64,000 nucleotides of DNA, from positions 26,607 through 90,606 of the forward strand of contig JBLFWR010000002.1 in NCBI GenBank assembly GCA_047611725.1. The letters run 5' to 3'. Below, piece by piece: positions 31,058 through 34,217 of the stretch. Made by a program: the position numbers and the translations under genes. The stretch comes from Candidatus Binatia bacterium. GTDB taxonomy: Bacteria > Desulfobacterota > Binatia > UBA1149 > CAITLU01. Below the pieces are notes generated by a model that worked only from the letters and a program-made list of their open reading frames with translations, was not told the origin of the DNA and did no database searches. How positions within the stretch are numbered: the first letter of the stretch is position 1; each line of letters starts with the position of its first letter.

Positions 31058-31100
31058 GCCTGCCGAATTGCGCGTGGGTGTCACCCACGCGCTCATTTCC

Positions 31101-31132
31101 TAACCGCCGCCAACAGTCTGCGCAGACTGTTG
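31101..31132. repeat. Palindromic repeat copy A (TAACCGCCGC + CAACAGTCTGCGCAGACTGTTG)
   Basis: Perfect 22-bp palindrome also present at ~32340, ~33844 and as variants at ~32295 and ~33925. Confidence 0.7.
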
Positions 31133-31280
31133 AGAAATCTCGCCCAAGTGGGGCTTCCGGACGCAGAAAGAAAGCGCGATCCTGGCAATGCTGGCGACGC
31201 TGAGCCTAGGAGTCGCGGCGTAAACGGAGCAACACGTCGGCGCACTCCCCCACCCCCTGCTCACATGCTACCGTCGTCCG

Positions 31281-31766
31281 ATGATCGGCGCCGACATACC
31301 CAAGATCATTGAGCGATCGTTCCCTTCCAGGTACGAACCGATCCGCGAGAGCCTTACTAAATGCTTTACTGCAGCGGGGATCTCGCTGGCCGTAGTGCAC
31401 GGATCGCAGGCGCAGGGCCGTGCTCATGAGGCGAGCGATCTTGACGTGGGCTTGCTCGGCGCCCAAGGCGAGCCGCTGTCTTACTCGAGAATGGGCCGAC
31501 TTGCGGCAGATCTGTCCGAACTGCTTTCGACGAAAGTTGACGTGAGCGATCTTGCGACCACCGATGCTATTTTTCGCTTCGAAGTCGCGAAGTGCGCGCG
31601 GGTGCTGTTCGAAGAAGGGCCGAAATCTTTCAGCGATTTTCTCGCCAAAACTCTCATCGACTACGCCGACATTCAGCGCTTTGTGCCAGAACTCGTGGCA
31701 GGCGTGGCACGGAAAGCCCGACGCCAATCCCGACTCTCCAACCGCACGAAAGGATCGAAGGCATGA
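31281..31766 (+). CDS. Nucleotidyltransferase (MNT) antitoxin of HepT/MNT type VII TA module
   Basis: LAVVHGSQAQGRAHEASDLDVGLL polymerase-beta-type NTase motif (GS...DLDV); ATGA overlap with hepT. Confidence 0.75.
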   Translation: MIGADIPKIIERSFPSRYEPIRESLTKCFTAAGISLAVVHGSQAQGRAHEASDLDVGLLGAQGEPLSYSRMGRLAADLSELLSTKVDVSDLATTDAIFRFEVAKCARVLFEEGPKSFSDFLAKTLIDYADIQRFVPELVAGVARKARRQSRLSNRTKGSKA

Positions 31767-32185
31767 GCGGCGAGATACTCGCCCGCAAAGTTGCCGCAAT
31801 TCAGACACGCACGACGCGCGTCCGCGAACTTTTTCCGCGAACCGTGGAAGAGTTTCTCTCCCGACGCACCGAGGCAGAGGCTCTACTATTGAATCTGTTT
31901 CTCGCGCTTCAGGAGTGCAACGATTTGGCGCTCCACTTAATCGCCGATCTCGGTCTCGGTGTTCCAGGGGAGCCCCTCGCCGCGTTCGAAGCCCTTGCAC
32001 GTGCCGATGTGATCACTGCAGAATTGGCACGGAAACTTGGCGCGGCGGTCGGGCTGCGCAACCGCATAGCTCACGAGTACGGCGGGTTAGATCTTGCGAA
32101 GGTGTACGAGGCAGTTCGTCATGACCTCGGGGACTTGGATGACTTCGCGTCGGCGGTAGCAGCTGCTCGTCTCCCGGAAGATTGA
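31763..32185 (+). CDS. HepT-like RNase toxin (DUF86)
   Basis: Rx4HxY motif RNRIAHEY near C-terminus; 140 aa. Confidence 0.8.
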   Translation: MSGEILARKVAAIQTRTTRVRELFPRTVEEFLSRRTEAEALLLNLFLALQECNDLALHLIADLGLGVPGEPLAAFEALARADVITAELARKLGAAVGLRNRIAHEYGGLDLAKVYEAVRHDLGDLDDFASAVAAARLPED

Positions 32186-32258
32186 GATTCAGAAACGCGG
32201 ACGCGCATGCCAGAACCGGGTACGACCGTGGCGACGGCGCAAGGTCAAACACGAGAGG

Positions 32259-32365
32259 CGGCAGCTACCCTGACACCTGGGGCCTAGCCGCCATCAACAG
32301 TCTGCGCCGACTATTGGCAATTCTGACGGCCTAACTACCGGCAACAGTCTGCGCAGACTGTTGCC
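32259..32365. repeat. Composite repeat copy B: GGCAGCTACCCTGACACCTGGGGCC + degenerate palindrome + perfect palindrome GGCAACAGTCTGCGCAGACTGTTGCC (overlaps 3' end of HNH gene)
   Basis: Same modules as copies A and C; palindrome encodes the last residues (QQSAQTVAGS) of HNH ORF. Confidence 0.7.
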
Positions 32366-33527
32366 GACCGCGCCCGCGCTTGGCTCGCATGAAGCTTCGG
32401 CCGAAATCGAGGTCAGCCTGATATTGGTTATGCCCGTGGCAGCGCAGTTCGATGTTCCCGAGTTCGTGCTGCCCGCCACGCCCGAAGGGCATTTTGTGAT
32501 GGAATTCCAGGTTACGTGTCGCGCGACACCGATGGCCGTTGTCATCTTCGAATCTGCAACGCCCGACATCCCGCAGCCAAACCGCGCGGCGTAGAGCTGC
32601 CGGGATGGCTCGGGTTCGAAGTTCTTTCGTGGTGACAGTTCCAGACTTTCGGACTGTGTTAGGCTGTCGCTGCGTTCGCGGCCGATCCACGAGAGCCGCT
32701 TTCTTCTTCAAGGTTTCCGCGAGCAGCAGATCGATGGCGCGACTGATGATGGCTGCGGGGTCCTCCGCAGCTGTGTGACTCAACAAATCTTCAAGGGCCC
32801 GAAGCTTGTCGTGGGTCTGCTGATCGACAGTTATTTCAACTTTGTAGCGACGCGGGGCCAACGGTGTGACCCGACCACGAGCCGCCGTCGGGCGTGTGCC
32901 AGCAGCGGGCAACGATAGACTCCGCGAATTGGACCCCGGCACGGCTTGCGACACTTCTCCGAGTCGAGTTGTCGTTGGCGACTCGACTCGGGGCTCACTG
33001 TTCGTCGACGCCCTGGGGCCGTCGCGGTTCACAACAGGCAACGCTCGAACCCGTGATGGGACATCAGGCTGCGGCGCAATCCGGGCGATCAAACATTCTA
33101 TCTCCCGCGCACTCTTGTGTCGCGCACAGGAAAGAACCTCGCGGTGATTGGCCTCGGTCAAATGCTTGGCAAGTAAATGCACCGCCGTCAGATGCAGCTC
33201 CCCACGCTCAATCATTTCCAACACGACAGGAAATCGACGAGCCACGCGCGCCGCCCAAATTCGTTTCGCAGTCATCCCTTCGGACATGTGGTAGCGCTGC
33301 ATGCAAAACGTGAACATCGACGAACAAGCATGCTTCGCCCAAAGTTTGCGCTCATCGATCTCGCTCATCGCGACCAACAGTTGAACGGTGTTGTGGCGCC
33401 CCTCCGCGATCACACGTGCGAAGTGATCGAGTAGTTTTTGTTCACAGAGTTCGGAAAGATTGGAGAGAGGCTGCTGCGAGTTGTTCATACAGCAATCGTA
33501 ACATGGGTTTTCAGGCGGGCTTTTCAT
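32331..33527 (-). CDS. HNH endonuclease with N-terminal DUF222-like domain (REP13E12-type family)
   Basis: C-terminal HNH: CRFEDDNGHRCRATRNLEFHHKMPFGRGGQHELGNIELRCHGHNQYQ; long helical N-domain typical of DUF222. Confidence 0.8.
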   Translation of the reverse strand: MKSPPENPCYDCCMNNSQQPLSNLSELCEQKLLDHFARVIAEGRHNTVQLLVAMSEIDERKLWAKHACSSMFTFCMQRYHMSEGMTAKRIWAARVARRFPVVLEMIERGELHLTAVHLLAKHLTEANHREVLSCARHKSAREIECLIARIAPQPDVPSRVRALPVVNRDGPRASTNSEPRVESPTTTRLGEVSQAVPGSNSRSLSLPAAGTRPTAARGRVTPLAPRRYKVEITVDQQTHDKLRALEDLLSHTAAEDPAAIISRAIDLLLAETLKKKAALVDRPRTQRQPNTVRKSGTVTTKELRTRAIPAALRRAVWLRDVGRCRFEDDNGHRCRATRNLEFHHKMPFGRGGQHELGNIELRCHGHNQYQADLDFGRSFMRAKRGRGRQQSAQTVAGS

Positions 33528-33528
33528 C

Positions 33529-33552
33529 GTGTCTACGCTCGAGCGTAGACAC
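33529..33552. promoter_or_regulatory. Perfect 24-bp palindrome GTGTCTACGCTCGAGCGTAGACAC immediately upstream of HNH gene start
   Basis: Seen directly; candidate operator or bidirectional terminator. Confidence 0.4.
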
Positions 33553-33843
33553 GCTAGAAGAACGCGCTACGCCGCCGCTAGTCGTCTATTGGAAAATTCA
33601 GGTCAAAAGTTCCACGACCGCCGATGGTCGTCCGGTACACGCAAAATGACGACGCCCAAAAGGCTGTCAAGAAAATTCGGCGGTACGGACCTGGCACGCG
33701 CGATTCTATGACATCAATGGCTTAACGAGGAGTTTGCCGAAATGGTGGAAGTTCTTTCGGTGGCTAGAGAACCTAAAGCCCATTCTTCGTTTGATCGCGC
33801 ACCCGGCAATCGCTCGCCAGCACCGGGCAGGACTTACCGACTT

Positions 33844-33950
33844 CAACAGTCTGCGCAGACTGTTGGCAGCTACCCTGACAGCTGGAGCCTCGCACCTGGG
33901 GCTAACACCCAGGAAACCACTCCCGGCAACAGTCCGCGCGGACTGTTGCC
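33844..33950. repeat. Composite repeat copy C: perfect palindrome + GGCAGCTACCCTGACAGCTGGAGCC + CACCTGGGGC + variant palindrome GGCAACAGTCCGCGCGGACTGTTGCC
   Basis: Shares both modules with copy B in rearranged order. Confidence 0.7.
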
Positions 33951-34217
33951 GTTGGCAGTCGATAGTTGGATGCAAAAGTTTGCCGCCTCGGCGGTGCTCG
34001 GTCCGACCAATAGCGCCAAGCCTAAAATTCCTGCCACGATCGCACCAAAAAACTTTGTACCTATTCTCGTAGTCATTTCGGTTCTCCTGTTTTGGGACAC
34101 CCCTTTTGGGCTGCTCCCCCTTTAATCAACCACTGCACCGTTCACGATGTAGGCGTTCAAAAAGGTAGAACCGTTGTTCACTGCATGTGAACGAACTCGC
34201 GTCACAGCGCGATCGCG

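What the first reader, a model, noticed from the sequence alone, without database searches (positions are those of the whole stretch)
31058..34125. Accessory islet built from a family of composite palindromic repeats, carrying a HepT/MNT toxin-antitoxin pair and a DUF222-HNH endonuclease
A perfect 22-bp palindrome CAACAGTCTGCGCAGACTGTTG occurs at ~31111, ~32342 and ~33844, with variants at ~32295 and ~33925. It is combined with two other reusable modules (TARCCGCC; GGCAGCTACCCTGACASCTGGRGCC + CACCTGGGGC) in different orders at three intergenic sites. The repeats bracket the MNT/HepT module and the HNH gene, and one palindrome supplies the HNH gene's last codons and stop. DUF222-HNH proteins embedded in their own repeat family recall mycobacterial REP13E12 elements, which are phage attachment sites. 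This may be a selfish/mobile repeat system or a hotspot for integration. The region between 33553 and 34217 has no convincing ORF.
Basis: seen in the sequence. Interest (0 to 1): 0.7.

Follow-up and report, generated by a model that had tools for sequence, protein, structure and literature searches.

The report
Multi-copy HNH nuclease cassette with palindromic ends
The palindromes are the conserved ends of a ~1.6-kb selfish gene cassette encoding a DNA-cutting (HNH) enzyme fused to a palindrome-binding-type domain, present in at least a dozen copies in this genome and in thousands of relatives elsewhere, which gives a concrete, testable model for a poorly understood class of repeated bacterial genes.

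Summary
In detail: five copies of a 22-bp palindrome lie in 31.1-33.95 kb and none elsewhere in the 64-kb window. It is not a free REP family. In nine paralogous loci of the source MAG (185 kb sampled), 23 of 26 repeat units belong to a ~1.6-kb unit. That unit is: repeat, ~350-nt leader, 385-aa ORF whose last codons (QQSAQTV) are the palindrome, often a second repeat. The three solo units each sit beside a toxin-antitoxin pair (here HepT/MNT).

Elements lie mostly between convergent genes, and three insertions are bracketed by 44-80-nt duplications of host 3' end or terminator sequence.

Best reading: a selfish, homing-type HNH cassette that recognises its own terminal palindromes, a distant analogue of mycobacterial REP13E12. 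The mechanism is inferred, not shown. The family is large (5,569 clusters at E<=1e-30). I found no description of this anatomy.

The parts
31100..31141 (-). Solo repeat unit S (22-bp palindrome 31111-31132 plus asymmetric flanks and a fossil in-frame TAG tail). It lies between the symporter's terminator-like hairpin (31070-31092) and the MNT gene.
   Evidence: 40.5 bits in the HNH orientation against 29.2 in the other
31281..31766 (+). MNT-type nucleotidyltransferase antitoxin (161 aa)
   Evidence: PF18765 Polbeta E 5.5e-13, PF01909 E 4.6e-6. PADLOC PDC-S09 candidates.
31763..32185 (+). HepT (HEPN) toxin, 140 aa. Its start overlaps the MNT stop by 4 nt.
   Evidence: PF01934 HepT-like E 3.8e-26
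32260..32284 (.). Spacer module copy 1 (GGCAGCTACCCTGACACCTGGGGCC). The same module adjoins palindromes in paralog loci L005, L006 and L007.
32284..32324 (-). Repeat unit D (degenerate palindrome 32295-32316), 47 nt downstream of the ORF-end unit
32331..32368 (-). Repeat unit E (palindrome 32342-32363). It encodes the last residues QQSAQTV-AGS and the stop of the HNH ORF.
   Evidence: The same position occurs in 5 of 9 paralogs (palindrome start = gene end -32).
32331..33488 (-). 385-aa protein. N-terminal ParB/KorB-like helical DNA-binding domain (~8-140), disordered linker, conserved helical middle region (~205-268), C-terminal HNH nuclease (~297-372) with invariant C-C-H-H-N-C-H-N.
33489..33843 (-). 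5' leader of the unit. The core from 33715 to the ATG is conserved in all nine paralogs (74% mean column identity). It has a putative -35 TTGACA at 33670-33665. There is no conserved RNA structure and no conserved ORF.
   Evidence: JC distance 0.48 against dS 0.96
33834..33873 (-). Repeat unit U2 (palindrome 33844-33865), the upstream terminal repeat of the HNH unit
33865..33902 (.). Spacer module copy 2 with a partial internal repeat. This is the site of a 14-bp tandem-duplication polymorphism (33890/33891) between two assemblies of this locus.
33918..33954 (-). Repeat unit U1 (palindrome 33927-33948, compensated variant TCCGCGCGGA). With U2 it can fold as one long REPIN-like hairpin in single-stranded DNA.

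Best explanation
The region holds one copy of a multi-copy, selfish HNH-nuclease cassette of about 1.6 kb, with a HepT/MNT toxin-antitoxin cassette lodged between the same repeats.

The unit is bounded by imperfect direct repeats of about 30-70 nt. Their core is a 22-bp palindrome. The right-hand repeat forms the last codons of the nuclease gene.

Proposed mechanism, all steps inferred:
1. The ParB/KorB-like N-terminal domain binds the palindrome, as a symmetric duplex site or as an extruded hairpin.
2. The HNH domain nicks or cuts there, or at similar hairpin-forming sites such as terminators.
3. The break is repaired by copying a donor cassette, using the flanking repeats as homology. This is homing-like gene conversion.
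4. Anything lying between two repeats, such as a TA pair, can be carried along or retained.

Shown here: the anatomy, the copy number, the strong constraint on protein and palindrome, the fold assignments and the insertion context.
For: Copy number and anatomy:
- At least 12 paralogs occur in one MAG.
- In 184,952 bases sampled from that genome, 23 of 26 repeat units lie within HNH units.
- One repeat lies 340-450 bp upstream (8 of 9 loci) and one at the ORF end (9 of 9).
- Upstream and ORF-end copies share 61-71 nt in the same orientation in three loci, and 43 nt in L013. All units score higher in the HNH orientation.

Conservation across genomes:
- The same architecture occurs in three other genomes with variant palindromes (ACATTCCCCGGGGAATGT, CACATTCCGCGCGGAATGTG).
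- Dyad symmetry is kept by paired changes: 82% of cells pair against 25-44% in slid controls, and 0 of 500 shuffles reach the covariation score.
- At least 60 of 119 homologs carry a palindrome-encoded tail in frame.

Selection:
- dS is ~0.96 and dN/dS 0.07-0.11 in folded domains. Catalytic and zinc residues are intact in 9 of 9 copies.
- The palindrome core has JC distance 0.14, against ~1.0-1.5 in adjacent flanks.

Insertion context:
- 9 of 11 elements with both neighbours known lie between convergent genes (gene tables).
- Host-sequence duplications bracket L011 (48/61), L012 (63/81) and the L008 TA islet (43/44).
- The only indel between two assemblies of this locus lies in the repeat spacer.

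Family size: 5,569 clusters at E<=1e-30.
Against: - No near-identical copies exist (best pair 86% aa, dS ~1), so recent mobility is not shown. MAG assembly could also hide identical repeats.
- No empty site was recovered, so the insertion boundaries and the target are inferred.
- Flanking duplications are detectable at only 2 of 9 HNH elements.
- HNH nucleases are not known recombinases or transposases.
- DNA binding and cleavage at the palindrome are untested.
- The sample is biased, because loci were fetched through HNH paralogs. Only ~170 kb of flanks is unbiased, and the whole genome could hold many more solo units.
- A common variant (CAACATTCCGCGCGGACTGTTG, 5 copies) is an imperfect palindrome, which weakens a strict hairpin requirement.
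Confidence: 0.55

Rival explanations
1. A REP/RAYT-like arrangement. The palindrome is a host-tolerated extragenic repeat that works at the RNA level (3' stabiliser or terminator) or in DNA organisation. The HNH protein is a domesticated repeat-associated nuclease that maintains or disperses it, not a mobile cassette.
For: - The gene is flanked by its cognate palindromes, as RAYTs are by REPs.
- Repeats lie at 3' ends of genes and between convergent genes.
- Doublets can fold as long REPIN-like hairpins.
- Paralogs are old and under purifying selection.
Against: - There is no HUH/Y1 transposase.
- The gene is multi-copy (at least 12), whereas RAYTs are typically single-copy per REP family (my knowledge).
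- Only 3 solo units occur in ~170 kb of flanks.
- The palindromes have no T-tract.
- The ORF-end copy lies inside the coding sequence, before the stop, which is awkward for a terminator.
Confidence: 0.15
2. An autoregulated nuclease paralog family, for example McrA-like restriction or another host function. The palindromes would be operators for the KorB-like domain. Copies would have arisen by ancient duplication and would not be mobile.
For: - KorB and ParB bind palindromic operators and can act at a distance (established knowledge; fold match).
- Sources annotate relatives as McrA.
- dS ~1 and the absence of identical copies.
Against: - The protein hits no PADLOC defence family and no NCBIfam family.
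- Operators do not explain the repeat at the ORF 3' end, the direct-repeat flanks, the tandem doublets, the solo units beside TA genes, the unrelated genomic contexts of every copy, or the host-sequence duplications bracketing insertions.
Confidence: 0.12
3. Integron-like cassettes. The palindrome would be an attC-like recombination site used by an unlinked recombinase, and both the HNH gene and the TA pairs would be cargo.
For: - Arrays of the form repeat-TA-repeat-HNH-repeat occur in the window and in L006.
- Each cassette ends in a palindrome.
- TA cassettes are typical of chromosomal integron arrays (established knowledge).
Against: - No integrase or recombinase appears in any of 12 loci, other than an unrelated IS481.
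- 23 of 26 units accompany HNH genes. The palindrome co-varies with the HNH lineage and is embedded in its ORF across genomes, which argues that HNH is not interchangeable cargo.
Confidence: 0.08

Closest known systems
Mycobacterial REP13E12 / '13E12 repeat family' (Pfam DUF222 + HNH proteins)
   Same: - A repeated unit of ~1.4-1.6 kb dominated by one ORF, with an N-terminal helical domain and a C-terminal HNH.
- Many paralogs per genome (19 DUF222 genes in M. tuberculosis, PMC13157036).
- Function undefined. In M. tuberculosis the loci are hotspots of gene conversion and inversion (PMC13061034, PMC13157036).
- Sub-threshold but collinear DUF222 hits occur in three family members.
   Different: - No family member reaches Pfam's DUF222 threshold, and this protein gives no hit at all.
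- The host is a non-actinobacterial lineage (the MAG is labelled Hyphomicrobiaceae; relatives are labelled Binatia and others).
- I found no published description of terminal palindromic direct repeats, of the ORF reading into the repeat, of a ParB/KorB-like fold, or of a TA association for REP13E12.
- The phage attB role is untested here.
REP/REPIN-RAYT systems
   Same: - A nuclease-type gene is flanked by its own short palindromic repeats.
- Repeats sit at gene 3' ends.
- Doublets can form long hairpins.
- Each protein lineage has its own palindrome variant.
   Different: - The enzyme is HNH, not a HUH/Y1 TnpA-like protein.
- The gene is multi-copy.
- Solo repeats are rare in the sample.
- The repeat overlaps the ORF end.
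Free-standing HNH homing endonuclease genes (phage mob/seg-type and intron-encoded HNH)
   Same: - A single selfish HNH nuclease gene with a sequence-specific DNA-binding module.
- The expected spread is by break-induced copying.
- The best PDB sequence match is a group II intron maturase HNH domain (E 0.018).
   Different: - These copies are chromosomal, at many unrelated sites within one genome.
- They are flanked by repeats that could themselves supply the homology.
- No relatives were found in viral contigs or PHROGs beyond the generic HNH domain.
IscB / HEARO (IS200/IS605-associated RNA-guided HNH-RuvC nucleases)
   Same: - The HNH domain is most similar at sequence level to the IscB/Cas9 type (NCBIfam domain-level hits).
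- A conserved non-coding region lies upstream of the ORF.
- The element ends are palindromic.
   Different: - There is no RuvC domain.
- There is no Rfam hit.
- The leader shows no conserved secondary structure or covariation.
ParB/KorB DNA-binding proteins
   Different: - No ParB N-terminal CTPase/Srx domain is present.
- There is no sequence-level family membership.
- The domain is fused to a nuclease.

Membership tests
Pfam DUF222 / 13E12 repeat family | DUF222 (PF02720) domain above the gathering threshold (24.4 bits) | tested here: not met
   The window protein gives no hit. One of 42 members hits at E 1e-3. P0240 scores 21.2 bits (residues 19-100 to profile 3-85) and P0121 16.7 bits. All are below the cutoff, but they are collinear, so remote homology is plausible.
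Pfam DUF222 / 13E12 repeat family | C-terminal HNH nuclease domain after the N-terminal domain | tested here: met
Pfam DUF222 / 13E12 repeat family | Dispersed multi-copy repeat unit of ~1.4 kb in one genome | tested here: met
   At least 12 paralogs in the MAG. Nine loci examined, each with a unit of ~1.6 kb.
Pfam DUF222 / 13E12 repeat family | Contains a prophage (phiRv1-type) attachment site | not tested
   No integrase or prophage lies in any locus, and there are no viral-contig relatives. No direct test was possible.
HNH nuclease superfamily (PF01844) | beta-beta-alpha-metal fold with catalytic His, Asn and His/Asn plus zinc ligands | tested here: met
ParB/KorB family | HTH DNA-binding domain fold | tested here: met
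ParB/KorB family | ParB N-terminal CTP-binding (ParB/Srx) domain and sequence-level membership | tested here: not met
   No Pfam or NCBIfam ParB hit.
REP-RAYT | IS200/IS605-like HUH/Y1 transposase flanked by REPs | tested here: not met
   The protein is HNH with no Y1 or HUH domain.
REP-RAYT | Abundant extragenic solo or doublet repeats across the genome | tested here: inconclusive
   Only 3 solo units were found in ~170 kb of flanks. The whole genome was not available.
IscB/HEARO | RuvC domain split by HNH, plus a structured omega RNA upstream | tested here: not met
   There is no RuvC. NCBIfam IscB hits cover only the HNH segment, well below the cutoff. Rfam gives nothing. The leader has no consensus structure.
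Type II TA, HepT/MNT | Adjacent MNT nucleotidyltransferase and HEPN-type HepT genes | tested here: met
   Both are above the Pfam thresholds, and the genes overlap by 4 nt.
Integron cassette array | IntI tyrosine recombinase with attI next to attC-bounded cassettes | tested here: not met
   No integrase appears in any of 12 loci.
Homing endonuclease gene | Nuclease cleaves the unoccupied target, with presence/absence polymorphism of the gene | not testable with these tools
   No empty site could be retrieved, because the collection scans and contig look-ups were exhausted.

The most novel reading that the evidence does not exclude
This is a previously unrecognised class of mobile cassette that needs neither transposase nor integrase.

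A ParB-like/HNH fusion would cut hairpin- or cruciform-forming DNA, both its own 22-bp palindrome and host terminators. Cutting at the base of the structure would leave the whole hairpin duplicated on both sides of the insert. That would account for the variable 44-80-nt duplications and for the palindrome at both ends. The enzyme would also mobilise toxin-antitoxin cassettes in trans.

Mycobacterial REP13E12 elements would then be a divergent branch of the same mechanism.
Probability: 0.2. Interest if true: 0.85.

Novelty: new variant of a known kind. Interest (0 to 1): 0.65.

Why it matters
Repeated DUF222/HNH-type genes have been known since the M. tuberculosis genome was sequenced. 2026 papers still describe them as lacking a defined function, even though they drive gene conversion and large inversions.

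This locus and its relatives (thousands of clusters) give a cleaner anatomy:
- a sharply bounded palindrome under strong constraint at both ends of the unit;
- a nuclease ORF that reads into that palindrome;
- a DNA-binding fold of the kind that recognises palindromes;
- a preference for terminator-rich gaps between convergent genes;
- a tie to toxin-antitoxin cassettes.

That turns an old 'unknown function' family into a set of direct binding, cleavage and mobilisation experiments. It may also reveal a nuclease-only route of gene spread within bacterial chromosomes.

Tried and rejected
- **Structured RNA or omega-like guide in the leader.** Rfam found only noise. RNAalifold gave -7.7 kcal/mol with no covariation. 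Rejected for the sense strand; the antisense strand was not folded.
- **Small conserved ORF in the leader.** No frame is open in all nine copies.
- **Public copies of the palindrome.** The genome and metagenome scans returned only 3 contigs. The two I checked for ORFs (L001, L003) have no HNH gene near the hit; L002 was not examined. The source MAG is not in those collections, so a true genome-wide count was impossible.
- **Phage or plasmid origin.** There are no relatives in viral contigs. Plasmids gave one spurious hit. PHROGs matched only generic HNH models.
- **Known defence system.** PADLOC has no hit for the HNH protein.
- **Intrinsic terminators.** The palindromes have no T-tracts and none was flagged.
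- **Solo units as decayed HNH genes.** tblastn found no remnant beyond the repeat itself.
- **Short fixed target-site duplications.** None was found. Only long, variable duplications appear, at L011, L012 and the L008 islet.
- **AlphaFold database search.** The afdb50 library was unavailable, so a fold-level link to DUF222 could not be tested.
- **First dN/dS run.** L006 was off by one base. It was redone.
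Full report
**1. The observation**

The 22-bp palindrome CAACAGTCTGCGCAGACTGTTG is exact at 31111, 32342 and 33844. Variants lie at 32295 and 33927. None is expected by chance, and none occurs elsewhere in the 64-kb window. A profile of the repeat unit finds no extra degenerate copies.

The second module is at 32260 and 33865. Pfam confirms MNT (31281-31766) and HepT (31763-32185). 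Base composition shows no anomaly.

**2. It is a repeated unit, not a local curiosity**

The minus-strand ORF (P0001) comes from a MAG labelled Hyphomicrobiaceae (locus tags ACI8TX_). That MAG holds at least 12 paralogs at 57-86% identity.

I fetched eight further paralog loci from the same metagenome. L004 is the JGI copy of this window's locus.

- All nine loci have a palindrome copy at the ORF's 3' end. In 5 of 9 it starts exactly 32 nt before the gene end.
- Eight of nine have a copy 340-450 bp upstream of the start.
- A further copy often lies ~47-56 nt downstream.
- In 184,952 sampled bases there are 26 units: 23 inside HNH units and 3 solo.

Caveat: the loci were chosen through the HNH gene, so only the ~170 kb of flanks is an unbiased sample.

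**3. Anatomy of the unit**

Alignment of whole units shows a leader conserved from ~230 nt upstream to a conserved start codon, ATGAAYAAC. In the window that start is 33488, not the 33527 of the longest ORF.

The leader contains TTGACA-N17-TAGTTT-like hexamers. It has no consensus RNA structure, no ORF open in all copies and no Rfam match.

The repeats extend beyond the palindrome. Upstream and ORF-end copies share 61-71 nt in the same orientation in L006, L010 and L008, and 43 nt in L013. Every unit scores higher in the HNH orientation. They are therefore imperfect terminal direct repeats.

The tail after the palindrome carries the stop codon. The solo (S) and downstream (D) copies in this window keep an in-frame TAG at the same distance (read).

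It recurs in L005, L006 and L007.

**4. The palindrome is the constrained core**

Between loci, the 22-mer has a JC distance of 0.14. The adjacent 10-nt blocks are at ~1.0-1.5, synonymous sites at ~0.96 and the leader at 0.48.

In three other genomes the homologous units carry ACATTCCCCGGGGAATGT or CACATTCCGCGCGGAATGTG at the same positions. In L013 an IS481-family element lies between the upstream copy and the leader.

Across 33 copies, 82% of arm positions pair, against 25-44% in slid controls. Two positions show paired changes, and no shuffle reaches the observed covariation score. Many copies are related by descent, so this supports maintained dyad symmetry but is not a probability.

At least 60 of 119 homologs encode the palindrome in frame, as xHSARNV/QQSAQTV or TFPGEC. 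Some read through two or three tandem units.

**5. The protein**

Structured regions have dN/dS of 0.07-0.11, against 0.46 in the linker. All nine copies keep the C-C-H-H-N-C-H-N set.

By sequence:
- Pfam HNH is sub-threshold for this protein but hits 39 of 42 members.
- DUF222 appears only below threshold, though collinearly, in 3 of 52 proteins tested.
- NCBIfam gives only IscB/Cas9-type HNH segment hits.
- PADLOC gives nothing.

The family is very large: 5,569 clusters at E<=1e-30.

**6. Context**

Of the 11 elements with both neighbours known, 9 lie between convergent genes. The downstream gene converges on the HNH gene in 11 of 12 (gene tables). Two elements follow tRNA genes.

Host sequence is duplicated on both sides of:
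- L011 (60 nt, a terminator-like hairpin abutting the palindromes);
- L012 (~76 nt, the 3' end of the upstream gene);
- the L008 TA islet (44 nt, 43/44 identical).

The other loci show none.

All three solo units adjoin TA modules: HepT/MNT here, ParE/Phd in L006 and Gp49/HTH_37 in L008. These are the only TA-type genes in the loci's gene tables. In the window and in L006 the TA pair lies between two repeat units next to the HNH unit.

The only indel between two assemblies of this locus is a 14-bp tandem duplication in the repeat spacer.

**7. Interpretation**

The evidence supports a selfish, long-resident, multi-copy HNH cassette whose terminal palindromes are a functional site.

By inference, that site is the binding and cleavage site of its own ParB/KorB-like-HNH protein, and the cassette spreads by break-induced copying templated by the repeats.

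The variable duplications of hairpin-forming host sequence suggest cleavage at hairpin or cruciform structures. That is speculative.

The rivals each explain part of the picture but fit the whole less well. They are a REP/RAYT-like domesticated system, an autoregulated host nuclease family, and integron-like cargo cassettes.

**8. Relation to known systems**

The nearest named family is mycobacterial REP13E12 / DUF222-HNH. Its function is still undefined. In M. tuberculosis it is a recombination hotspot (PMC13061034, PMC13157036, PMC10589994).

Formal DUF222 membership is not met here. Literature searches found no description of the terminal palindromic repeats, the ORF-repeat overlap, the ParB-like fold or the TA association.

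I class this as a new variant of a known kind.

Noticed in passing
window 33890/33891 (L004 9624-9637): Two assemblies of the same locus differ by 3 SNPs in 21 kb and one indel. The indel is a 14-bp tandem duplication (AGGCTCCAGCTGTC) inside the spacer module between the two upstream palindromes. This suggests slippage or instability there.
   Followed up: partly
window 33870-34100 (-): A small ORF with a signal-peptide-like N-terminus (MTTRIGTKFFGAIVAGILGLALLVGPSTAEA...). Its 3' part runs into the repeat units. Its C-terminus differs between the two assemblies (76 aa against 105 aa) because of the 14-bp indel. It has no Pfam hit.
   Followed up: partly
L008 2692-2735 and 4110-4153: A 1.4-kb islet carries a Gp49(HigB-like)/HTH_37 TA pair and a solo repeat unit. 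It is bracketed by a near-perfect 44-bp duplication of an intrinsic-terminator hairpin (AAGAAGCCCCGGAGCATTGCGCTCCGGGGCTTCTTT).
   Followed up: partly
L006 8535-9627: A ParE-like/Phd TA pair lies between two identical repeat units immediately upstream of the HNH unit. This mirrors the HepT/MNT arrangement in the window.
   Followed up: yes
L013 8506-9705: An IS481-family insertion sequence lies between the upstream palindrome and the HNH leader of a distant homolog. The upstream palindrome there sits 1825 nt before the start, against the usual 250-470.
   Followed up: no
L014 1-68: Three tandem 14-nt copies of a half-palindrome (ACATTCCGCGTCGC) precede the upstream palindrome in a forest-soil homolog locus.
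   Followed up: no
window 33528-33553: A perfect 26-nt palindrome (CGTGTCTACGCTCGAGCGTAGACACG) lies in the leader just upstream of the start region. It is not conserved as a palindrome in the other paralogs.
   Followed up: partly
L005 9221-9297; L009 670-758: Two of the nine HNH units lie just downstream of tRNA genes (tRNA-Arg, tRNA-Leu). L005 lacks an upstream palindrome.
   Followed up: partly
window 31070-31092: A GC-rich hairpin (GCGCGTGGGTGTCACCCACGCGC) follows the sodium:solute symporter gene, directly before the solo repeat unit. It is probably the symporter's terminator.
   Followed up: no
source MAG: The MAG is labelled Hyphomicrobiaceae. The closest HNH relatives from other genomes carry labels such as Candidatus Binatia, Limnocylindrales and Myxococcales, so the taxonomic label may be unreliable.
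   Followed up: no
window 31281-31766: The MNT antitoxin matches PADLOC candidate defence families PDC-S09 and PDC-M05A (E down to 2e-10).
   Followed up: no
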